The notes beneath the pieces are model-generated. The model saw only the letters and a program-made list of their open reading frames with translations, searched no databases and was not told where the DNA came from. Positions 1-42,132 of a DNA stretch of 42,132 nt are shown in pieces (within the stretch, counting starts at the first letter, position 1; each line of letters starts with the position of its first letter). Made by a program: the position numbers and the translations under genes. Source of the DNA: a virus (lineage: Duplodnaviria; Caudoviricetes); the IMG/VR virus record IMGVR_UViG_3300032076_000020, positions 1-42,132 of that record; one strand, given 5' to 3'.

Positions 1-127
1 ATGACGATCTCAACTTCGGTCGGCTTCCACTTCATGTACTTGAGCAGGGCGCCAAGAGCGTATCCCTCGAGCTGCGCATTCGCCTGGCCATGCTCGTCTT
101 CGATATCGACGGCCACGCCTGCGCCAT
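1..127 (+). repeat. Terminal direct repeat (circular assembly overlap), copy 1
   Basis: 1-127 is identical to 42006-42132. Confidence 0.95.
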
Positions 128-560
128 ACTTGAGGTCACGGCAGACCAGGCGATTCTTCGACGGCAGCCAGATGACAACATCTCCAGTACCGAACAAGTC
201 CTGATGGATCTGGTGCAGATGGAACTTTTCTTCCACCCTGATCTCCGAGCAGGGGTCTTCGTTCAGCATCCGGCGGATAATTTTCAGCACGCCCTGGATG
301 TGGCCGGCCATCTCGGCTTCAACCTTGATGGTCTTCGTCTCGCCATGGTCTTCATATGTGAAATCTTTGCTGACCAGATCGACGGCATTCTTGTCGTGAA
401 GCAGGCAGAACTGCTGCAATGCGTGCGCAGCCGTGCCTTCTTCTGCATACTTGCTCGATGTGCTGGGGATGTTCTCCGACAGTTTCACGCTGCCGGGACA
501 TGCCGCCCAACGTTTACGGGATGAGAAGCCCACCTTACTGTGAGCTGGAAGACTGTTCAC
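1..560 (-). CDS. DUF2800 Cas4-like PD-(D/E)XK nuclease, N-terminal part (continues at 42005 down to 41330; about 411 aa total)
   Basis: Manual translation from GTG at 560: MNSLPAHSKVGFSSRKRWAACPGS...AEEGTAAH...FGTGD...DLKYGAGVAV; in frame with the 41330..42121 ORF across the join. Confidence 0.85.
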   Translation of the reverse strand, partial: MNSLPAHSKVGFSSRKRWAACPGSVKLSENIPSTSSKYAEEGTAAHALQQFCLLHDKNAVDLVSKDFTYEDHGETKTIKVEAEMAGHIQGVLKIIRRMLNEDPCSEIRVEEKFHLHQIHQDLFGTGDVVIWLPSKNRLVCRDLKYGAGVAVDIEDEHGQANAQLEGYALGALLKYMKWKPTEVEIV

Positions 561-720
561 GTGGTCCCTCGCTATCAACTTCCTTCAGCACGCTCGCCAG
601 CGGAACCAAAACACCGTTCGTACAAGACGGACATGACTGGGAAAAATCTGTTACGCATCCGCAGTCCGGGCAAAGGTATGCCCGGCCCAGCGGAAAGTGT
701 TGGATCTGATCGATGGTCAT
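535..720 (-). CDS. Small zinc-ribbon protein
   Basis: CPDC...CPSC motifs; ATGA-type coupling with the upstream gene. Confidence 0.65.
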   Translation of the reverse strand: MTIDQIQHFPLGRAYLCPDCGCVTDFSQSCPSCTNGVLVPLASVLKEVDSEGPREQSSSSQ

Positions 721-31562: not shown

Positions 31563-32579
31563 TTACCTCAAATGTGCTACAGCTTCACCAATCGACCAGA
31601 ACGGGACCATCTTGTGCTCGTCCGGATAGAGAACGATGCACGGGTACGCCGGGATGGTGAGCAGGCTGAAGTGGCGCTGGCCGTAGCCCGAGTGCGTATG
31701 CAGGCTGCCGGTGGTAATGGCAACGTGCATCTTGCCGCCTTCGTGGTACATGTCCAACTCTGGCGTATGCAGATCGCCCTGCAGAACGATATCCCTGTCC
31801 GGTGCTTCCATCCGGATGTAGCGCTTCGGGCCATGGACGCGCGAGTACATCGAGTTGCCGGCGAACTTGTGGTTCGACGCTACCTTGTATTCCTGCTTCC
31901 CTACTTTCAGCCGAACGTGTGCCAGGCCGTTGAAGTAGGTGGCGTGGCGACTGATCAGGTTCTTCAGAACGCTCGAGCCCGCAAGCTTTTCCTGGCGTTC
32001 AATACCGTGGTTGCTCCAGCCAGCCCACGCGATCTTGTGGTCAACTTCGCGGATCCACGCTTCGATGAATCGCTCTTGAATTTCAGGAGTGAAGATCTGT
32101 GATGTAACCTCGAGCACGCTGCGCAGCCTGATGGCGTGTTCTGTCTCGTCACCGAGCATCACCATGTAGAGGTTCGGTGTGTTGACGATCTCGTCGGTTA
32201 TCTTGCAGAACAGACTGTAGTCGCAGCCCCATGCGCCAATGTGCTGGTCAGAAAACGTAGCCAGGATGATGGGCTTGCCGTCGCCGAGTTCGAATACCGC
32301 TTCTTCGTTCTGAGTGCGCGAGCCTTTTGCTTTAAGCTTCTGACCGTGCTGCGCCCATTCTGCCCATTCACGCCAGTCGAACTCTGCCTGCTTATGATTG
32401 ACTGGAGTTACTATCGGGCGATCAAGTGGTCTGAATGCGCCTATCTTCGCGTACCTGTCAACGGTGGAAGGGTGAAGGCCGAGCACTGCGGCTATCGAAC
32501 GGTGGCTGCGCCCTTGAGCCAACATGGAACGCACGTTTTCCTGAAGGTCGGTAGAAATTCTATGCCCTTGATCGGCCAA
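31563..32579 (-). CDS. HTH fused to a calcineurin-like metallophosphoesterase
   Basis: N-terminal SHRSIAAVLGLHPSTVDRY; SDQH, GD, SNH, NH, GDLH metal motifs; GGAGG RBS. Confidence 0.8.
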   Translation of the reverse strand: MADQGHRISTDLQENVRSMLAQGRSHRSIAAVLGLHPSTVDRYAKIGAFRPLDRPIVTPVNHKQAEFDWREWAEWAQHGQKLKAKGSRTQNEEAVFELGDGKPIILATFSDQHIGAWGCDYSLFCKITDEIVNTPNLYMVMLGDETEHAIRLRSVLEVTSQIFTPEIQERFIEAWIREVDHKIAWAGWSNHGIERQEKLAGSSVLKNLISRHATYFNGLAHVRLKVGKQEYKVASNHKFAGNSMYSRVHGPKRYIRMEAPDRDIVLQGDLHTPELDMYHEGGKMHVAITTGSLHTHSGYGQRHFSLLTIPAYPCIVLYPDEHKMVPFWSIGEAVAHLR

Positions 32580-34156: not shown

Positions 34157-34387
34157 TTAAACCTTAGAGTCAACAGTGCTTTCCGCGGTACTCGAGTATG
34201 TGAAGCGCTGCTCGAATGCGGCCAGTTCCGTTTCGGGGTAAAGCACGCGACGGCCGAACTTGATGTAACGCGGGCCGCCACCGGCTGTACGCCAGTTGGC
34301 CAGCGTCCCCTTGGATACTCTGAGCCTCTTGGCTGCTTCTTCCGCTAACAGATTCACTGTTGTGTTTGCTCCTTCACGTTGGTTCAC
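34157..34387 (-). CDS. xis: Excisionase-like HTH_17 protein
   Basis: LLAEEAAKRLRVSKGTLANWRTAGGGPRYIKFGRRVLY. Confidence 0.8.
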   Translation of the reverse strand: MNQREGANTTVNLLAEEAAKRLRVSKGTLANWRTAGGGPRYIKFGRRVLYPETELAAFEQRFTYSSTAESTVDSKV

Positions 34388-35529
34388 TGCATCAGTCCTT
34401 TCAGGGCTACTGCTTCCTGGTAAGCGAGGATGAATTCTTTAGCCGCTTCAACGTTGATGGCGTTGCCGTAGGCGCGCAGGCGTCCCACTCTGGAGGCAGC
34501 CCCATGAGCCAGCGGGAATGTGCCGGGTTCAACTGGCCGCCACTTTCCATCCCTGCAGAAGAGCCAGTCAGCAGCTCGCCAGATACCGTTAACCGGGCCG
34601 GCTGCGATGTCAGGCACAGGTCTACACACTTCCTGCTGCTGTCTGTGTTGCCCGCTTCGTTGTAGCCGTTCTGTGCCGGCGTCCCGGCCATCGGTGTTGG
34701 CCACCCCGCCAGATGTGTAATCCTGCCCAGCGTATCGTTGCGCAACTTGCCATCCTTGCGCACCGAACTGTTGTCCAGGTTCCCCGTATCCTTCCAATCC
34801 CTTGTTGTTGTTGTTGGCCAACCACTCAACGCTGCTGCTGCTGGTAGTCTGTCCGTCCCCTGCGATGGGCCGCCGTGGGGTCCGTCCTGACTGCATGGTG
34901 TCGGCCATGACGCGAGTTGCACTGCGGTCCCCAGCTTCATCAGGCCAGGAATCTTGCGGCCCTCGTCCTTGTGCCGCTGCTTCCGTGCCAGCACCGTCTC
35001 CAAGCTTTCGCCAGTCTCGACTGCATTCGGAGTCGGCCAGCCAGTATGCTCTGTCTCGGATGTGCGGAGCACCGATGCCCGCAGACGGGAACGGGAGACA
35101 CCCGAAGGAGTAACCCAGCGCTTCCACGTCAGCTTGTACAAGGTCGATCCAAGTGTTCGCGTCCTTGCTCGCAACCTGCTCTCCAAGCACGACTGCAGGC
35201 TGGTGATAGGAAATGAGGTGGTTGAAGGACGGCCATAAGTGCCGCTCGTCAGAAGTCCCCGCTCTTTTGCCAGCCGCGGAGAAAGGTTGACAGGGACAAG
35301 AACCTGTCCACACGGGCTTATCATCCGGCCATCCTGCTCTGCGTAATGCAAGGGACCAGACTCCGACTCCTGCAAAGAAGTGACACTGGCTGTATCCATC
35401 AAGTTCTCCTGGCGTAATGTCTTCAATCGAACGCGAGTCAACAACACCGGGCGCAATGTGACCGGCATCTATCAGGTTGCGCAGCCACTGCGCTGCATAT
35501 GGATCTAACTCGTTATAGAAAGCCGTCAT
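34384..35529 (-). CDS. C5 cytosine DNA methyltransferase, alpha-type chain (motifs I-VIII and X)
   Basis: FFAGVG (I), GSCPCQPFS (IV), GEQV (VI), PHIRDR (VIII), LRAYGNAI (X); no motif IX seen in this frame. Confidence 0.9.
34407..35399 (-). CDS. Nested alternative-frame methyltransferase beta-type chain (four WPTP modules plus motif IX)
   Basis: 330-codon open frame inside the MTase gene; ATG at 35399 preceded by AGGAG; ends with [15 protein letters not shown]. Confidence 0.8.
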
Positions 35530-37682
35530 TCCTCGCCCCACTGTTCGGTGTGTCCCACAAACGCATCCCAGTCCTCGCGCACCTTGTCGAGCGACGGGAA
35601 CTCGTAGCCGTAATTCAGGTGGCCGTCTACCCTGATCTTTTTGTGCAGGATCGACGGGGCCATGGACTTCAGCTTCTTGCCGAATTCCACATCGGATTTG
35701 AGACGGCTCTTTATGTTGTGGCGCCGGGCCCAGGCTTCGAATGCGGTGCGTAGCCTATGGGTCGGCACAACGGTTGGCCATGCCCCACCGAAATCTCCGG
35801 AGGCAACCGAGCCTTCGGACAGGCAGTCGTGCCACCAGTTCGGCATCGGCTCCATGGTGGCTATCTTCTGGTCGAGCAGTGCCTGGGTCTGCGGTGCGCA
35901 GTTCACATCCACGGTTGAGAGATCGAAGTTGAGCAGGTAGCGCAGCAGATGACTATTGCCCCCACCGTCCAGGCCAACGCGCAGCTCCTCGAAATACTTC
36001 CGGTTCTGCATCTTGCCTTCGCCCATCTGGAAGACGGCGAAGCGGCGTTCATCGACTGAGGCCGGCACAAGCCAGTCTTCGTTGCCGATGATCACAACCC
36101 GGGTGAGATTGGCGACCTTGTATGTTTCTTTGCCTTTGTGCTCGATGACGTGGTGGTCGCCTGTGATCAGATCCTTCAGGATTCCTTCCGACTCTTTGTC
36201 CCCCGACCAGAACGCTTCGTCGAGGACCAGGCACAGGCAAGACTCAAAATGGCCGTTAAAATTAGAGACAAGATAACGGCGCTTAGAAGTGAGCAGAAAA
36301 TGCGAATCAACAAGCTTGCCGATTCGTTCGATAAGCGCGTTTTTTCCCGTCCCCTTTCTGCCTTTGAAGACCAGTGCGACCAGTGGCTTTTCCCATGGGC
36401 GCTGAACCATGTGCGCGAAGTACCCGATCAACCATTGAGTCAGCTTCGGATCTCCGTCACAGACGTTCTCGCGGCAGTGCTCGATGAACCTTGTAACCAT
36501 CGGGTGCTCTGGCGAGTCTGCAGGCTCAACCGAGAATCCACGCCACAGGTTGTACCAGCGTGGTCCCGCATCCTGCTCCGGTTTGAAAACGAAACCGTCG
36601 TAGGACCGGCGCCCGCTCCAGGCCAGCCACAGTTTGGTGAGCGGAGTATTCTTGTTGCCGACCTGCAGTGTGCGCGATGCGTGCTTGATGTGGAACGTGT
36701 TCAGATCCATGTGCTGGAGAGCAGCCTGGCCTTCAGGTCCGGTAGTCTCCCAGATCACATGGCCGCCGCCGGCAGTCGTGAATGCGTAGTTCTGGTTGAA
36801 CCCTGCATACGGTGGCTGGCTTTCTTCCTCTGCTGGTTCCGGAGCTGCCGCGAATACCGCTTCCGGTGCGGCCGCGCCCGGTTGTTCCTGTCCGTACTTG
36901 TAAGCGTTGGCGACCTTCGCAACTAGTTCTTCGCAGCTCCAGGGGGGAGTGCAATCCTCGTTCCAGTGGAATAGCAGCAACTGCTCTGCCTGCTCCTGGC
37001 TGCATCCGAAGTCCTTCAGCCTGGCCGCCACCTTGTAAGTGGCCTCGTCTCCACCCTCTCCCTGAACTGCGCGCGGGGCTACCTTGAGAAAATCAAGTGC
37101 CCGATTCCGCGCGCGATCAGAGTCCACGTCCCTAGGCAGAACATCAGCATTCCGATCCACACTGACAGCCTTACCCAGTCGATCGACCAGCCACTGTGGT
37201 GCTTCTTCGGGAGACGTGTGGCCGTCGATCTGCTGGTAGGCGCGGCCATCGATCTCGCTGCCCGGGCCAACGATGTATCCACCCTTCGACCGGATATCGA
37301 CGCCCGGGCCCAGAACGTTAACGCCCTGCTTGAGGGCATGGGTTGCGGAATATATGATGTGGCGACCGCTGCTTGGAGTCGCCTGCTCAAGACTGATCGG
37401 TAATACCATGCCCTGCATTTCGAGATCAAAGACCGATGCATCACCATTTTTCTCCCCCTTCACGTCCACATCGACAACTACCAGAGCGTTGTTGTTTCCG
37501 AATCGCGATGTGGAAATCCCAACATTGTAGTCACGCGAATGCCACCATGAGCGGATCTGGTCCGCATCCCGGGTAGCCTGGTTCGGCCAATCCGTAACGG
37601 CCGGTTTCTTCCCGTTCTCAACACACGGGAAAATCCAGAATCCACGTTCTGCCAGTTCAAGTGCTGATTCGAGCCTGTCCAC
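35526..37682 (-). CDS. Bifunctional primase-polymerase fused to an SF3/DUF5906-type helicase
   Basis: IFPC..NGKKP, VVDVD, TPSSGRHIIY, DIRSKGGYIVGPGS; GRKGTGKN (Walker A), LDEA. Confidence 0.9.
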   Translation of the reverse strand: MDRLESALELAERGFWIFPCVENGKKPAVTDWPNQATRDADQIRSWWHSRDYNVGISTSRFGNNNALVVVDVDVKGEKNGDASVFDLEMQGMVLPISLEQATPSSGRHIIYSATHALKQGVNVLGPGVDIRSKGGYIVGPGSEIDGRAYQQIDGHTSPEEAPQWLVDRLGKAVSVDRNADVLPRDVDSDRARNRALDFLKVAPRAVQGEGGDEATYKVAARLKDFGCSQEQAEQLLLFHWNEDCTPPWSCEELVAKVANAYKYGQEQPGAAAPEAVFAAAPEPAEEESQPPYAGFNQNYAFTTAGGGHVIWETTGPEGQAALQHMDLNTFHIKHASRTLQVGNKNTPLTKLWLAWSGRRSYDGFVFKPEQDAGPRWYNLWRGFSVEPADSPEHPMVTRFIEHCRENVCDGDPKLTQWLIGYFAHMVQRPWEKPLVALVFKGRKGTGKNALIERIGKLVDSHFLLTSKRRYLVSNFNGHFESCLCLVLDEAFWSGDKESEGILKDLITGDHHVIEHKGKETYKVANLTRVVIIGNEDWLVPASVDERRFAVFQMGEGKMQNRKYFEELRVGLDGGGNSHLLRYLLNFDLSTVDVNCAPQTQALLDQKIATMEPMPNWWHDCLSEGSVASGDFGGAWPTVVPTHRLRTAFEAWARRHNIKSRLKSDVEFGKKLKSMAPSILHKKIRVDGHLNYGYEFPSLDKVREDWDAFVGHTEQWGEE

Positions 37683-37684
37683 TA

Positions 37685-39694
37685 TCAGCCTTTCCGATAT
37701 CTCTGTGCGCGCCAGCCTTTAGCTTTGGTCGGCAGGCCGGCTGCCCAGGCGGGCGCCTCGGCCGTTAACGTTTCGATACGACGAAGTGTATCACAATCGC
37801 ATGATGTTGTTATTTCAACTACAGCTTCATCATGAACGTGAATTACTACCTTGAAACCGTTCGCCTCGAGTGTCTGCAAGCTGAACGCCAGCAGATCGCG
37901 AGCCACTGCCTGCGTGACGTTCTCAGCGAGGGATCCGCCGTAGGTGCTGATGCGCTGCCACGCACCGTTCGCGTTGGGATCATCCAGTACCTTGGTGGAC
38001 TTGCGCTGAGTCGAGTCCAGTTCGGTCATGTACGTGAGCGCTTCCTTCTCATCCCCCCACGGTGTAGTGACTACACGGATCTCGGGGTACGGGTAGCAAA
38101 GCACCCTGCCCGATGGCAGCCTGCACCACAGGAACGATCCGTTCTTCAGGTAAGTGACTTGCCTGCCCGGCGCGCCGGCGCTATGCTTGCCGCCCTGGGT
38201 GAGCGCGCGCATGGCTGCGTTCTCGAGATCGTACCAGTACTGAACGATGCGCGGATGAGCTGCGCGCCAGGCTACCTTGATCTCGTCGGCTTCAACATCC
38301 GGAACCTTGACGTTGTAATTGCGGGCCATCGACTGGAAGGCGCCGATCCCACCACCGTATCCGAGAGCGAGAACGGAAACCTTACCTACCTGTCGTTGCG
38401 CCTCCGATACATCATCCAGACGCACATGATAAATGCCAGCAGCAGCGTGTTCGTAAATTCGTCCATGGGTACGAAAGATCTCCAGAACTTCTTCCTGGCC
38501 GGCGAGCCACGCCAGCACGCGCGCTTCGATTGCGCTGAAGTCAGCGGCAGCCAGATCGTGACCTGGGGAAGCCATCAACATGCCGCGGATCGAATCAGCC
38601 AGCGCATCCATCACCGGGCCGTACATCGCGTCGAGGTAATCCCGCTGGTCGAGGTGCGCGATTACGTCGGCAACATCTTCGGGGTGCATGTCCGGACGTG
38701 TGCGCGGCAGGTTCTGCACCTGTATGCCGCGGCCAGCCCAGCGTCCGGTAGCCGCGCCGTGATATTGATGCAGGTTCCTAACCCTGCCGTCAGCACTGGC
38801 GCGATCGCGCATGGCCATTAGCTTGGCGGTAGAACTCTTGGCTGCTTCCTTGCGCAGATGCAAGGCTGCGGCTACGTTGGCCGGCAGGTTCTCATCCTGC
38901 AGTGCGTCGAGGATGTCTGCCTTGGCGACACCGTTCATCTCTACGCCTTGCAATTTGATCCACTTCACCAGCAGTTGCACTTCAGAGCATTTGCCGACCA
39001 CGCCACCCGTGGCTACCAGCATCTCGGCGTTCAGGCGTTTCTGCTCCTGTTCAACAAGAGAAATAGCTTTCTCGATCGCGTTCAGATCAACCGTAATGCC
39101 CCGCTGGTTGATCCGGTAGTCGAGTTGCCAGATGGCTTGTTCCTCCGGAGACAGTTCCATGATCCGATCGAGAACTGCCATCTCTGTACGAACGTCCTGC
39201 TGGTTGTAGCGATAGAGTTGCTGGAACTTTTCCGGATCATCCCATGGGCGCCAAAATGTTCCGTCCTGCCTGGGCTGCGCGAGTTGCAGCATCACACGCT
39301 TGCCGGCGATATCCTTACGCTGCTCGAGCCCCAACGCTGGAGCCACGTTCTCGAGTGCGCCCGGCAGACCCATGGCGTATGCGGCAGCCATCGAGCAGCG
39401 CACCTGTTCTACAGGGAGTCTCGGCCAGCCGTATCGACGGACTGCGCATTCGTTCCAGAGAGCGATTTCAAAGGCTGCATTCCAAGCAGTAAATATGCCC
39501 CCCGTAACGATGTGGTCGCGAACCACATCAGGAAATCGCTCGCCTTCAGCCCAAGTATGGATAGGACCGTCAGCAAGATTGCCAAAGGAGAAGCAATGAA
39601 TACCCGTACTTTTGTCGGTTGCATAGTTGTGCAAACCTCTCGCTTTCAGATCGACTGCGCTGTATGTTTCGAAATCCCCGCTTAGACGTTTCAT
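37685..39694 (-). CDS. polA: Family A DNA polymerase with 3'-5' exonuclease (APSE/SPO2 type)
   Basis: DFET, WNAAFE, TGRW, DFSAIEARV (motif A), RQVGKVSVLALGY (B), HVHDE (C). Confidence 0.95.
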   Translation of the reverse strand: MKRLSGDFETYSAVDLKARGLHNYATDKSTGIHCFSFGNLADGPIHTWAEGERFPDVVRDHIVTGGIFTAWNAAFEIALWNECAVRRYGWPRLPVEQVRCSMAAAYAMGLPGALENVAPALGLEQRKDIAGKRVMLQLAQPRQDGTFWRPWDDPEKFQQLYRYNQQDVRTEMAVLDRIMELSPEEQAIWQLDYRINQRGITVDLNAIEKAISLVEQEQKRLNAEMLVATGGVVGKCSEVQLLVKWIKLQGVEMNGVAKADILDALQDENLPANVAAALHLRKEAAKSSTAKLMAMRDRASADGRVRNLHQYHGAATGRWAGRGIQVQNLPRTRPDMHPEDVADVIAHLDQRDYLDAMYGPVMDALADSIRGMLMASPGHDLAAADFSAIEARVLAWLAGQEEVLEIFRTHGRIYEHAAAGIYHVRLDDVSEAQRQVGKVSVLALGYGGGIGAFQSMARNYNVKVPDVEADEIKVAWRAAHPRIVQYWYDLENAAMRALTQGGKHSAGAPGRQVTYLKNGSFLWCRLPSGRVLCYPYPEIRVVTTPWGDEKEALTYMTELDSTQRKSTKVLDDPNANGAWQRISTYGGSLAENVTQAVARDLLAFSLQTLEANGFKVVIHVHDEAVVEITTSCDCDTLRRIETLTAEAPAWAAGLPTKAKGWRAQRYRKG

Positions 39695-40026
39695 GGAAAA
39701 GTCACATCCTGATCGAAATATTCTTCCCAGTTCTTCTTCATCTTGATGTCGTTCTCTTTAAAGAACCATCTCTGGTGGTTCGATACCGCGCCATGCTCCG
39801 ACTTGCCCAGCACCTGTAAGTTAGCGAAATCGTTGTTCAGCTTGTTCCCGTCCCGGTGGTGGACTTCTTCCTCTGGCTTCAACTTGCGGCCCAGCATGGC
39901 CTCGGCCACCAGCGTGTGTACTCGACGATCACGCTGGGGGCCGGCCTTTATGACCAGGTAACCCTTGTTGTCGATATTGGCGCCGTGCTTGAGTTTGGGC
40001 ATATTGTCTTCTTGCAAACGGCTCAC
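39691..40026 (-). CDS. HNH endonuclease
   Basis: VHTLVAEAMLGRKL...VHHRDGNKLNNDFANL....EH. Confidence 0.88.
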   Translation of the reverse strand: MSRLQEDNMPKLKHGANIDNKGYLVIKAGPQRDRRVHTLVAEAMLGRKLKPEEEVHHRDGNKLNNDFANLQVLGKSEHGAVSNHQRWFFKENDIKMKKNWEEYFDQDVTFP

Positions 40027-40724
40027 TCCGGCACCTTCACGAGCGCACGATTCACTAACCAGTCGGAATCACGCCAATTATTAACTCTGTCGCGCCGAAC
40101 CACCATTTTGTCGTAAGGAGGTAATCTTTTGACGAAAAGGTCTATTTCATCCGCCATTGCGGCCAAAACATTCCTCTCACGCAAAAGCATTCCTATCGCG
40201 TCTTCATGTGAAAGGCTCGTTATTCTGCAGTAAGTAGAGGGGTAATTACTTTGACCAGGAATAGAAAACATGCGATATAAAGCCCGTATTGCAATGCTGT
40301 ACCTTTTGCATTGTTGACTGTCGTTGTGTCGAAGTCCTTCCAGTTCTTCCTTGCAACGGTCAATCTCTTCGCTCAAATCAAAATTTTGTCTCTTCAGTTC
40401 GACTAACCTACTACCAAAGTTGCGGGCAAAGTTATCGCTGGAATTGCTCACCTCTTTAGCGTTGCGCGCCCGCTTCCACGTCTTTATAAGGTCGATGACT
40501 TCACCTTCCCAACGAAACCACTCCCCGGATTCTCTGTACTTGTGTAAATAGCGGTGCATCTGTTTTTCCTCAGACACGCCTTCACATTCCCTTACGGAGT
40601 AAACATACAATCCGAACGGGCATCCGGTTTGTAACTCTTTAACCCTTTTGTCAACATTCGCAGCCGTACCTATCTTCACGAAAGGCGCATCTATCGTCCT
40701 GATGGCGTACAAGTTGGTGCCCAC
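40023..40724 (-). CDS. GIY-YIG-like (T5orf172/MUG113) domain protein with coiled-coil tail
   Basis: LYAI...VKIG..NVDKRVKELQTGCP...EKQMH...GEWF; more AT-rich than neighbours. Confidence 0.8.
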   Translation of the reverse strand: MGTNLYAIRTIDAPFVKIGTAANVDKRVKELQTGCPFGLYVYSVRECEGVSEEKQMHRYLHKYRESGEWFRWEGEVIDLIKTWKRARNAKEVSNSSDNFARNFGSRLVELKRQNFDLSEEIDRCKEELEGLRHNDSQQCKRYSIAIRALYRMFSIPGQSNYPSTYCRITSLSHEDAIGMLLRERNVLAAMADEIDLFVKRLPPYDKMVVRRDRVNNWRDSDWLVNRALVKVPE

Positions 40725-40746
40725 AAATAACCTCAAAAGTGACGCA

Positions 40747-41329: not shown

Positions 41330-42132
41330 CTACTGGTTGGCGAACGCAGAAGCTGCGTCCAGTTTTACTGCTGCGCGCTTGTCGCTTTCGTGTACCAGCG
41401 CATGACCGGAGCTTTCACGAATTGTGAACTCCTTGATGAATTCGGCCCGTTCTTTGTCGTTCTTACCGGGCGCCATCTTCTTGATCTCGGTGATGCCGCG
41501 GAGTGCCGCGGGCTCGAGCAGCTCATTCGTGTCGATCCCCAGCTTGTCGGCGAGATCGAAAGCGATACCTTCGCGCCACTTCGCGCGGCCTTCCTTCTCG
41601 ACCAGCTTGTAGCTGGGTGGAGTCCGACCCTGCTCTGCTTCGGCGTAGGCGAACTCCCGCACGTTCTTGATCCAGGCTTCCAGAATTGGCAGCCAGTCCA
41701 GAGTCTCTGACAGTTCGTGCGGCTTGTACGGGGCTTCAGGAGCGAAGACTTTCTTCGCCAGTTCCTGCGCCTTGTTCTTCAGCTTCGGGCAGAGCGGAGC
41801 AGCGGGACACCAACGGCAGTGATCGCCTTGCTTGAGGTAGCTGATTTCCCACGGGAACGGCAGCATACGCCCGAACTGCGCCGATGCTTCCTCCGTCAGC
41901 TTGACTTCATCAACGATGTCGGCAGCCATGTCCACGAAGTAGGAGACAGGCAGGATCTTCGATCTCGACGTTTCACCGCTCGAGTGAAACGCCCGCGGCT
42001 GATCAATGACGATCTCAACTTCGGTCGGCTTCCACTTCATGTACTTGAGCAGGGCGCCAAGAGCGTATCCCTCGAGCTGCGCATTCGCCTGGCCATGCTC
42101 GTCTTCGATATCGACGGCCACGCCTGCGCCAT
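41330..42132 (-). CDS. DUF2800 Cas4-like nuclease, C-terminal part
   Basis: NAQL..YALGAL, IDQPR, GDHCRWCPAAPLCP, YKLVE; joins 1-560 through the terminal overlap. Confidence 0.88.
   Translation of the reverse strand, partial: GAGVAVDIEDEHGQANAQLEGYALGALLKYMKWKPTEVEIVIDQPRAFHSSGETSRSKILPVSYFVDMAADIVDEVKLTEEASAQFGRMLPFPWEISYLKQGDHCRWCPAAPLCPKLKNKAQELAKKVFAPEAPYKPHELSETLDWLPILEAWIKNVREFAYAEAEQGRTPPSYKLVEKEGRAKWREGIAFDLADKLGIDTNELLEPAALRGITEIKKMAPGKNDKERAEFIKEFTIRESSGHALVHESDKRAAVKLDAASAFANQ
42006..42132 (+). repeat. Terminal direct repeat (circular assembly overlap), copy 2
   Basis: Identical to 1-127. Confidence 0.95.

What the first reader, a model, noticed from the sequence alone, without database searches (positions are those of the whole stretch)
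34384..35529. C5 methyltransferase split over two fully nested reading frames
Seen: two long same-strand ORFs overlap for about 1 kb. Frame A has motifs I, IV, VI, VIII and X but low-information filler between VIII and X. Frame B (34407-35399) has its own AGGAG-N6-ATG, the variable-region modules and motif IX ([13 protein letters not shown]). Established: M.EcoHK31I is a two-chain C5-MTase whose motif IX chain is encoded in an alternative frame of the same gene. Inference: this phage encodes such a heterodimer, with an unusually long nested chain that standard gene callers would miss. No clearly cognate restriction enzyme is adjacent.
Basis: partly seen in the sequence, partly recalled or inferred. 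Interest (0 to 1): 0.8.

Follow-up and report, generated by a model that had tools for sequence, protein, structure and literature searches.

The report
Two-frame phage methylase with swapped motifs
One kilobase of this phage's DNA holds two long overlapping reading frames, both kept open in nearly all related phage genes examined, that likely encode the catalytic half and the DNA-reading half of one cytosine methylase, which likely protects the phage from restriction enzymes and whose cofactor-binding segments appear to be in a swapped order.

Summary
Confirmed. Frame A (34384-35529, minus, 381 aa) is a C5-methyltransferase lacking motif IX. Frame B (34407-35399, 330 aa, +1) lies wholly inside it behind AGGAG-N6-ATG. 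B spans the gene in 154 of 160 relatives, is under purifying selection of its own (omega about 0.4, against 1.0 upstream), and co-folds with A (0.90, best control 0.00). One database protein fuses both in one frame. An E. coli gene matching a published M.EcoHK31I primer has the same +1 nesting and motif IX split, so the layout is known in kind. Three things differ. B (330 against 176 aa) carries four ~36-aa WPTP modules that vary in number and order among relatives: likely target-recognition units. A has motifs in the order II-III-I-IV, not the circular permutation reported for natural enzymes. No restriction partner was found. The layout is not peculiar to this phage: it is in N15, epsilon15 and rV5-like phages, and B has 8,171 clusters. 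Expression, activity and target are untested. The scan found this two-frame gene, and the swap, before on other DNA. New variant of a known kind; interest 0.7.

The parts
34384..35529 (-). Chain A, 381 aa catalytic chain of a C5-cytosine methyltransferase; motif order II-III-I-IV-V-VI-VII-VIII-(filler)-X; ATG overlaps the primase stop (ATGA)
   Evidence: PF00145 1e-11; phrog_363 2e-81; HhaI 2e-15 by profile; model matches HhaI at Z 11.3, rmsd 3.4, 168 aligned; start context
35401..35529 (-). A residues 1-43: motif II (YNE, invariant E7) and motif III-like segment placed before motif I
   Evidence: Model residue 1 aligns to HhaI 34, HaeIII 23, mouse DNMT1 1165; strand-helix-strand-helix at pLDDT 90-96; best profile match on the motif II Glu in 3 canonical-order groups, each weak (P 0.01, 0.06, 0.017)
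35362..35376 (-). Motif I (FAGVG, A 52-56), only 27 residues before the catalytic Pro-Cys
   Evidence: Aligns to HhaI 4-32; spacing; 36-residue gap against the EcoHK31I-like alpha chain
35050..35301 (-). Catalytic motifs IV (P79-C80), VI (E117) and VIII (R158, R160) of A
   Evidence: Invariant in 40 aligned sequences; aligned to HhaI 72-176
34615..35022 (-). A residues 170-305: unconserved filler read over B's modules
   Evidence: Low column conservation; pLDDT about 33 over 187-320; omega A 0.65 and 1.26 at the two module heads tested
34456..34485 (-). Motif X ([10 protein letters not shown]) of A
   Evidence: R350, Y354, G355, N356, A357 invariant; profile hits the GN(A/G)V motif of 5 canonical-order relatives
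34407..35399 (-). Chain B, 330 aa, nested in +1 phase; likely small (DNA-recognition) domain with motif IX
   Evidence: no Pfam family common to 115 members; phrog_31772 and phrog_1008 'DNA methyltransferase'
35406..35410 (-). Shine-Dalgarno AGGAG of B, 6 nt before its ATG; replaces the family's usual starts at offsets 109/121, which are not ATG here
   Evidence: SD+ATG in the open +1 frame in 89 of 107 relatives against 12 of 107 in the +2 frame; offset 130 used by 1 of 107
35031..35294 (-). B residues 36-123: conserved helix and hairpin read over A's motifs IV-VIII
   Evidence: omega B 0.42 [0.36-0.48] with omega A 0.23 over A 77-166; helix 65-81, strands 88-96 and 102-110; contacts with A 141-159 region listed in the interface
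34602..35039 (-). Four tandem WPT(P/T) modules of B (121-164, 165-193, 194-232, 233-266); candidate target-recognition units
   Evidence: module heads under selection in B only or mainly; near-identical relative P0003 diverges after residue 257 and has a fifth module
34494..34532 (-). Motif IX candidate [13 protein letters not shown] (B 290-302)
   Evidence: Profile hits the segment just before motif X in single-frame actinobacterial relatives (E 0.0014, 0.0004); aligns with the C-terminal motif of the EcoHK31I-like beta chain directly at P 0.21 and via the Kiel007-group B profile at P 1.5e-4; predicted to pack on A 333-359 and 154
35526..37682 (-). Primase-polymerase/helicase gene directly upstream (context)
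   Evidence: Prim-Pol and DUF5906; phrog_1156
34157..34387 (-). HTH/excisionase-like gene directly downstream, start overlapping A's stop (context)
   Evidence: HTH_17; phrog_66

Best explanation
The gene holds two overlapping open frames, A and B, which are likely both translated and likely assemble into one two-chain DNA cytosine-5 methyltransferase, with A likely doing the chemistry and B likely choosing the DNA targets. Shown from sequence: A has the SAM-binding and catalytic motifs and motif X but no motif IX; B has its own ribosome-binding site, a motif IX-like end and four tandem modules; each frame is under purifying selection. Inferred: ribosomes coupled from the primase gene make A, and a second start 130 nt in makes B from the same mRNA (about 0.9). 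B's hairpin and motif IX dock on A's motifs VIII and X and rebuild the two-domain enzyme (about 0.85). A's residues 170-305 are a passive loop whose length follows B's module count. A's SAM-binding half is built in the order II-III-I (about 0.9). Each WPTP module reads one target, as in multispecific Bacillus phage enzymes, so the phage methylates several sites during replication and escapes host restriction; modules are exchanged by recombination at their conserved heads (about 0.55).
For: Open +1 frame in 80 of 80 viral loci and spanning the gene in 154 of 160 loci. On 60 disjoint pairs omega B is 1.02 upstream of B and 0.93 over its first 35 residues, but 0.42 over B36-123, 0.34 and 0.48 at module heads, 0.55 around motif IX; third-position entropy of conserved four-fold A codons falls from 1.73 bits (10 codons) upstream to 0.70 (20 codons) under B. 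SD+ATG in 89 of 107 against 12 of 107. Co-fold score 0.90, best of 3 controls 0.00; mark reached by 116 of 157 solved complexes and 2 of 215 mismatched pairs; runs agree in at least 70% of contacts, partner pLDDT at least 54; likeness to solved single-chain C5-MTases may help this pass. P0154 (722 aa) has A then B with 9 modules and motif IX in one frame. The EcoHK31I-like gene has the same phase and split, and papers show both of its chains are needed. Motif I-to-PC spacing is 35 or less in 158 of 158 family loci where motif I was found and 50 or more in 130 of 130 canonical-order relatives. Modules: 1 to 5 per chain in 87 of 107 parsed, median 36 aa, same types at different positions.
Against: No expression or activity data: the best RNA runs hold only 0.04 of the words. 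B alone folds poorly (pLDDT 62, pTM 0.27) and matches no solved structure by sequence or fold, so the modules' identity as recognition domains rests on position, variability and analogy. A module-head profile did not pick out the recognition motif of 4 canonical enzymes or the EcoHK31I-like chains; the best of 20 module-enzyme alignments (p 0.008) does not survive correction. Direct B-to-EcoHK31I-beta similarity is not significant (P 0.21). Sequence support for motifs II-III at A's start is weak: 0 of 30 fragments hit PF00145. 3 of 10 odd loci inspected (L132, L154, L159) have a frameshift in the module region. P0154 is a single-member, single-contig cluster. Related phage C5-MTases of another type have relaxed rather than multiple specificity.
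Confidence: 0.8

Rival explanations
1. Same two-chain enzyme, but the modules do not each read a distinct target: they act together as a general DNA-binding array and give one relaxed specificity (such as CC), or only one module is used.
For: Other phage C5-MTases near replication genes methylate a relaxed CC motif (PMC5537653, PMC6536676 passages). Only B190-202 and 228-233 of the module region appear in the predicted interface. No homology of modules to known recognition domains was shown.
Against: Module bodies fall into distinct, conserved types reused at different positions; a relative identical for 257 residues gains a fifth module. That pattern fits selection for repertoires.
Confidence: 0.3
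2. One polypeptide is made by programmed frameshifting from A into B and back, so that B's own start is incidental.
For: Two loci (L154, L159) have A's frame running into motif IX; actinobacterial relatives carry modules and motif IX in frame A.
Against: The same bases are under selection in both frames over A77-166/B36-123 and A307-355/B264-312, which one chain cannot use twice; B has a conserved SD+ATG; in L154 and L159 motif X falls into a third frame, as expected of a break.
Confidence: 0.04
3. B is a real protein but a regulator or inhibitor of A, or has an unrelated job; A borrows its small domain from elsewhere or is inactive.
For: B has no Pfam or PDB match; B-like segments occur in long proteins with other domains such as PF01555 and PF00476, though those may be read-through calls.
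Against: B supplies the one motif A lacks; A's catalytic residues are invariant; the genome has a single PF00145 match; fusion P0154.
Confidence: 0.07
4. Frame B is a shadow of A's codon use, or an assembly artefact.
For: For the window alone the open frame has a chance of up to 0.6% under recoding.
Against: 104 of 106 relatives have no +1 stop in a fixed core where 7.2 are expected and 0 of 106 in the +2 frame (this set was pre-filtered for B ending near A's end, the unfiltered count is 154 of 160); omega B far below 1; contigs of other runs agree.
Confidence: 0.01

Closest known systems
M.EcoHK31I (E. coli, YGGCCR), two-chain C5-methyltransferase; seen through PMC2836561 (passages, supplement) and PMC3404938 (passages), and through an E. 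coli AR_0017 gene that matches a published primer at 31 of 31 gene-derived bases (L329)
   Same: Second chain wholly nested in the first, same +1 phase; motifs I-VIII and X on the outer chain, IX at the end of the inner chain, which stops near motif X; dispensable or neutral N-terminal leader on the inner chain (omega B 0.93 over B1-35).
   Different: Inner chain 330 against 176 aa; four WPTP modules against none; recognition domain reported on alpha there, most likely on B here; alpha has canonical I-II-III order, A has II-III-I; EcoHK31I-like gene sits next to a NotI-family endonuclease, this one is an orphan in a phage replication operon; direct B-beta similarity not significant (P 0.21).
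M.AquI (CYCGRG), two-polypeptide C5-methyltransferase (PMC3404938 passage)
   Same: Two chains, split within the variable region.
   Different: Its small subunit has motifs IX and X; here X stays on A.
Multispecific C5-methyltransferases of Bacillus temperate phages (PMC12707154 passage; names M.SPR, M.phi3TI, M.rho11s and their 40-50 aa domain size are recalled, from no call)
   Same: Orphan phage enzyme with a tandem array of short variable units in the recognition region; anti-restriction role.
   Different: They are single polypeptides with proven specificities; no homology of the WPTP modules to their domains was tested.
Natural circularly permuted C5-methyltransferases (M.BssHII, M.Alw26I, M2.Eco31I, M.Esp3I, M2.BsaI; PMC5944983 passages and Discussion)
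   Same: Non-canonical motif order.
   Different: All 27 found in that REBASE survey are cut in the variable region (IX-X before I). Here two blocks inside the SAM-binding half are exchanged (II-III before I, X still last), which is not a circular permutation and would not meet that survey's criterion.
Annotated phage genes N15 gene 58, epsilon15 p22, CarlMeissner bas48_0207, RcDora gp22 (PHROG 363)
   Same: Same family: short I-to-PC spacing, YNE/YND start, nested +1 frame with WPTP-type modules and motif IX.
   Different: Those four records annotate only frame A; PhiXhv-28 and fTaEco01 annotate both frames.

Membership tests
C5-cytosine DNA methyltransferases (PF00145) | Motifs I, IV (PC), VI (E), VIII (RxR) and X present and conserved | tested here: met
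C5-cytosine DNA methyltransferases (PF00145) | Motif IX present in the enzyme | tested here: met
   Absent from A, present at B 290-302 by profile match to single-frame relatives and predicted packing on motif X
C5-cytosine DNA methyltransferases (PF00145) | Canonical motif order I to X | tested here: not met
   II-III precede I
C5-cytosine DNA methyltransferases (PF00145) | Forms 5-methylcytosine in DNA from SAM | not testable with these tools
   Needs an assay
M.EcoHK31I-type two-chain enzymes | Second chain encoded wholly within the first in another frame, with its own start | tested here: met
   same +1 phase as L329
M.EcoHK31I-type two-chain enzymes | Motif IX on the inner chain, I-VIII and X on the outer chain | tested here: met
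M.EcoHK31I-type two-chain enzymes | Target-recognition domain on the outer (alpha) chain, as the papers state | tested here: not met
   A 170-305 is unconserved and predicted disordered while B is constrained there; this is inference from conservation, not a binding test
M.EcoHK31I-type two-chain enzymes | Inner chain homologous to EcoHK31I beta | tested here: inconclusive
   Direct P 0.21; via Kiel007-group B profile motif IX at P 1.5e-4; hairpin region P 0.05-0.09 via two other groups
M.EcoHK31I-type two-chain enzymes | Both chains required for activity | not testable with these tools
   Co-fold supports binding only
Type II restriction-modification system (as EcoHK31I) | Cognate restriction endonuclease next to the methyltransferase | tested here: not met
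   Neighbours are primase and an HTH gene; no endonuclease family of R-M type among 53 ORFs (PHROGs) or 28 ORFs (PADLOC); HNH and T5orf172 genes 4 kb away score as homing-type
M.AquI-type | Motifs IX and X together on the small subunit | tested here: not met
   Motif X is on A
Multispecific Bacillus-phage methyltransferases | Tandem, exchangeable short modules in the recognition region | tested here: met
Multispecific Bacillus-phage methyltransferases | Each module confers one target sequence | not testable with these tools
   Needs methylome of module variants; homology test to canonical recognition motifs gave nothing significant
Multispecific Bacillus-phage methyltransferases | Single polypeptide | tested here: not met
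   Two frames in the window; one-frame form only in P0154
Natural circularly permuted C5-methyltransferases | Motif X precedes motif I | tested here: not met
   X at A 349-358, I at 52-56; criterion from PMC5944983

The most novel reading that the evidence does not exclude
A very large, unnamed phage family (N15, epsilon15, rV5-like, Kagunavirus, thousands of metagenomic clusters) encodes a programmable multispecific cytosine methylase in one dual-coded kilobase: a hidden chain of swappable 36-residue recognition cassettes, cushioned by a sacrificial loop in the outer frame, docks on a catalytic chain whose SAM-binding Rossmann half has been rewired non-circularly (II-III-I-IV), possibly with a rare left-handed crossover.
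Probability: 0.45. Interest if true: 0.85.

Novelty: new variant of a known kind. Interest (0 to 1): 0.7.

Why it matters
If right, a layout treated in the papers I read as an exception (M.EcoHK31I) is a common way for phages to encode cytosine methylases, and cloning only an annotated, recoded or truncated frame would give an inactive enzyme. It offers a long, natural, same-strand overlap with hundreds of divergent copies for measuring how two proteins share one sequence: A is free where B's modules vary and both are constrained where they are predicted to touch. The modules make a testable code from short peptide to methylated sequence, of use for anti-restriction biology and for targeted methylation, where split C5-enzymes are already used (PMC2836561). 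The II-III-I order would be a non-circular rearrangement of the SAM-binding fold that a REBASE survey for permutants (PMC5944983) was not built to find. Laboratory phages such as N15 make all of this testable at once.

Tried and rejected
Pfam scan of 30 N-terminal fragments of A and relatives: no PF00145 hit, only chance-level families; HMM of A1-45 against 10 canonical sequences: no positive score; so the swap rests on spacing, the model and weak profile-profile matches. B against Pfam (115 members), NCBIfam, PADLOC, PDB sequences, Foldseek and VIA-align: nothing meaningful; ESM Atlas gave only unnamed viral clusters, with a low recognition value. Module-to-recognition-domain homology: not significant; module 2 aligned on the PTVV segment of an NgoMIV-system methylase (p 0.008 of 20 tests), a lead only. 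Target guess from word depletion: GTCGAC, CAGCTG, GACGTC, ACCGGT, GCATGC and ACGCGT are depleted, which fits ordinary restriction-site avoidance and cannot name the target. The primer search found nothing in plasmids. The first motif survey missed many A frames through a strict pattern and was redone with a profile. The tree is the quick version (careful search unfinished): 22 swapped-order rows form one group at SH-aLRT 97, but they were chosen by likeness to A, 109 columns are few and long branches meet, so I draw no order of events from it. 'Mte8-like', the label of B in fTaEco01, led to one passage with no functional data. The P. larvae phage paper lists two cytosine methyltransferase genes in a table and its shown passages do not discuss their nesting. 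The two BASEL papers gave nothing on this gene. Literature searches that found no description of the phage family's nested frame or of the II-III-I order; the library lacks most subscription papers, the 1990 and 1995 primary papers were not seen, and REBASE was not searchable.

Full report
Setting. The window is a complete 42,132-nt virus record with direct terminal repeats and one PF00145 match. PHROG hits describe a temperate, short-tailed-type phage: integrase, repressor, terminase, head-tail adaptor, tail tubular and internal virion proteins. The gene lies in the minus-strand replication block, after DNA polymerase A and primase and before an HTH gene and the lysis genes; its ATG overlaps the primase stop and its stop overlaps the next start. 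Ten of 24 listed runs hold half or more of the stretch's words; all ten are soil metagenomes.

The observation. Frame A (35529-34384, 381 aa) and frame B (35399-34407, 330 aa, phase +1) are as described, with AGGAG six bases before B's ATG. For the window alone the open B span arose in 129, 12 and 1 of 20,000 trials under three null models. Contigs of runs X2 and X4 cover 34656-35700 and 34501-35700 with no difference or gap.

B is a real gene. Loci were collected with A as query only. In 80 of 80 viral loci B's match is in phase +1 on one ORF of 249-337 aa, and the third frame has 8-23 stops. With 80 more loci from bacterial genomes, 154 of 160 have a +1 ORF from before the catalytic Pro-Cys to within 200 nt of A's stop; five of the six others have a longer A and one is frameshifted. 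Of ten odd loci inspected, three (L132, L154, L159) have a frameshift in the module region. In a fixed core of 106 non-redundant relatives, 104 have no +1 stop against 7.2 expected from synonymous shuffles, and 0 are open in +2; this set was pre-filtered for an intact B end (151 loci kept), so it overstates the share. An overlap-aware comparison of 60 disjoint close pairs (uncorrected distances, bootstrap over pairs) gave omega B 1.02 upstream of B, 0.93 over B1-35, 0.42 over B36-123, 0.34 and 0.48 at the first and last module heads and 0.55 over B264-312; omega A was 0.11, 0.15, 0.23, 0.65, 1.26 and 0.54 in the same blocks. So A alone is constrained at the start, B mainly or alone in the module region, and both over motifs IV-VIII and over motif IX. 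An ATG with a Shine-Dalgarno match sits in the open +1 frame in 89 of 107 relatives against 12 of 107 in +2; the family uses offsets 109 and 121, which are not ATG in the window, and the window has its SD+ATG at 130 instead.

What B is. It has no common Pfam family (115 members), no PDB relative and, folded alone, no clear structural match. Its C-terminal profile lands on the segment just before motif X in two actinobacterial relatives that carry that segment in frame A (E 0.0014 and 0.0004) and, weakly, on the LQGFP segment of a canonical enzyme; I take it as motif IX (motif names are recalled). Co-folding A with B scored 0.90 against a best control of 0.00; the mark was reached by 116 of 157 solved complexes and 2 of 215 mismatched pairs; runs agree in at least 70% of contacts and partner pLDDT is at least 54. 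The tightest pairs join B 291-299 to A 333-359 and 154, B 305-309 to A 15-19, and B 268-271 to A 321-324. Likeness to solved one-chain enzymes may help such a pass. Among 36 longer relatives of B, two have PF00145: P0154 has A through motif X, then B's hairpin, nine modules and motif IX in one frame, and P0155 has seven modules between A's core and motif X; each is a single-member cluster.

The modules. Between hairpin and motif IX, B has four units beginning WPT(P/T). In 87 of 107 relatives parsed there are 1 (3 loci), 2 (22), 3 (42), 4 (17) or 5 (3) units, median 36 aa; the simple pattern also makes some false cuts. Distinct unit types recur at different positions, and window units 2, 3 and 4 have 84, 61 and 81% identical partners elsewhere. 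P0003 is identical to B for 257 residues and then has a fifth unit and another end, which fits recombination at a unit head. A's residues opposite the units are unconserved and predicted disordered. A review passage says Bacillus temperate phages protect themselves against many restriction systems by arraying several target-recognition domains in one polypeptide (PMC12707154). That the units here are such domains is inference: homology tests were not significant.

The swapped order in A. A's profile aligns residues 38-66 to HhaI 4-32 (motif I) and 71-171 to HhaI 72-176, leaving HhaI 33-71 unmatched; against the EcoHK31I-like alpha chain A shows a 36-residue gap at the same place. Motif I lies 27 residues before the Pro-Cys; the spacing is 35 or less in all 158 family loci where motif I was found (of 160) and 50 or more in all 130 canonical-order relatives where it was found (of 139 with a core). 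The AlphaFold model has strand 3-6, helix 10-21, strand 28-31 and helix 40-43 at pLDDT 90-96 before the motif I strand. The 17 best structural matches are all cytosine-5 methyltransferases, and each alignment begins with model residue 1 or 2: at HhaI 34, HaeIII 23, mouse DNMT1 1165. If ungapped, invariant E7 equals HhaI E40, the ribose-binding acid of motif II (residue role recalled). Profile-profile matches put E7 on the motif II Glu in three canonical groups, each weakly, and Pfam did not detect the fragments. The order II-III-I-IV...X is not a circular permutation. PMC5944983 (passages and Discussion) reports that all natural permutants it found are cut in the variable region and searched for X before I. 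If the motif I helix keeps its face of the sheet, its link to the motif IV strand would be a left-handed crossover; I could not see coordinates to check.

Breadth. A matches 416 phage records and B 233; 139 and 127 cover 80% or more of the query. The nested frame and short spacing are in N15, epsilon15, CarlMeissner, NINP13076, RcDora, fTaEco01 and PhiXhv-28. B's profile finds 8,171 clusters (50% identity) at E up to 1e-30. The nested frame also occurs with the canonical order: +1 overlaps of 150 codons or more in 73 of 79 Kiel007-like and 28 of 28 Sphingomonas-like loci, with B profiles homologous to ours (E 4e-25, 1e-17); in Estave1-like loci it is 18 of 32, and in the two examples read the inner frame holds mainly B's N-terminal part while motif IX lies in A. 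The simplest reading, not shown by the tree, is that nesting is older than the swap. Of the 40 rows listed, 2 show two methyltransferase annotations under the match; fTaEco01 and Kiel007 also annotate both frames.

Comparison with M.EcoHK31I. [quoted passage not shown] A published primer found a matching gene in 81 of 5,426 E. coli genomes. In one, alpha is 309 aa with canonical order, a 176-aa +1 frame runs over alpha codons 104-279, and a NotI-family endonuclease lies next door. The window's gene works like this enzyme by architecture but fails three of its features: partner nuclease, motif order and place of the recognition region. Supplementary Figure S1 of PMC2836561, with the beta sequence, is a picture and gave no text.

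Mechanism, graded. Shown: two conserved frames, complementary motifs, own start signal for B, variable module array, short I-to-IV spacing. Predicted: A-B binding, N-terminal motifs II-III in the SAM site. Inferred: co-translation from the replication operon, 5mC formation, one target per module, protection from restriction. No restriction endonuclease was found.

Prior notice. Ten paper searches found no account of this phage family's nested frame or of the II-III-I order, within a library that lacks most subscription journals. Earlier agents of this scan reported the two-frame gene, the modules and the swap on other genomes; I looked only after reaching that reading (note), and those notes are not counted as evidence.

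Verdict. Real, conserved and a new variant of a known kind. Interest 0.7: the two-chain principle dates from 1995, but its spread through model phages, the modular inner chain and the rewired SAM-binding half would surprise a specialist and can be tested directly.

Noticed in passing
window 41330-42121 and 3-578 (-): Two pieces of one phrog_69 exonuclease (profile 236-474 and 85-260) at the two ends of the window: the gene runs across the join of the circular record.
   Followed up: partly
window 39691-40026 and 40023-40736 (-): An HNH endonuclease and a T5orf172/MUG113 protein sit between the ssDNA-binding gene and DNA polymerase; they score as homing-type, not restriction enzymes.
   Followed up: partly
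window 31563-32579 (-): 338-aa protein with an N-terminal HTH and a domain matching phrog_7339 'DNA repair exonuclease', between the lysis genes and the integrase.
   Followed up: no
whole window: Several six-base palindromes are strongly depleted (GTCGAC 2 vs 25.5 expected, GACGTC 0 vs 15.4, GCATGC 0 vs 14.4, ACGCGT 0 vs 11.4, both strands), pointing to restriction pressure from the host.
   Followed up: no
L182:1609-2712 (Estave1 gene 75) and L186:1615-2586: Actinobacterial relatives keep motif IX in frame A next to motif X, yet still have a nested +1 frame homologous to B's N-terminal part: the point at which function crosses between frames differs among lineages.
   Followed up: partly
L113, L129, L138, L147 (about 140 extra codons before motif X): Frame A carries a long insertion between B's end and motif X in these loci; its content was not examined.
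   Followed up: no
L184:1661-2752 (Sphingomonas plasmid): The record annotates only the B frame, as a hypothetical protein, and not the catalytic frame that surrounds it.
   Followed up: yes
window 34821-34907 (module 2) and L187 protein residue 216 onward: Module 2 aligns on the PTVV...HGGP segment of an NgoMIV-system methylase, and module 3's tail aligns on motif IX of another canonical enzyme (p 0.008 and 0.012 of 20 tests): a hint that a module is a recognition-start-to-motif-IX-like unit.
   Followed up: partly
P0123 (612 aa): A B-like protein with two motif IX-like ends and a cysteine- and histidine-rich, HNH-looking segment between them, perhaps a homing insertion (the HNH label is by eye).
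   Followed up: no
L054:3001-3552: A short duplicate of A's first 40 residues lies about 500 nt upstream of the intact gene.
   Followed up: no
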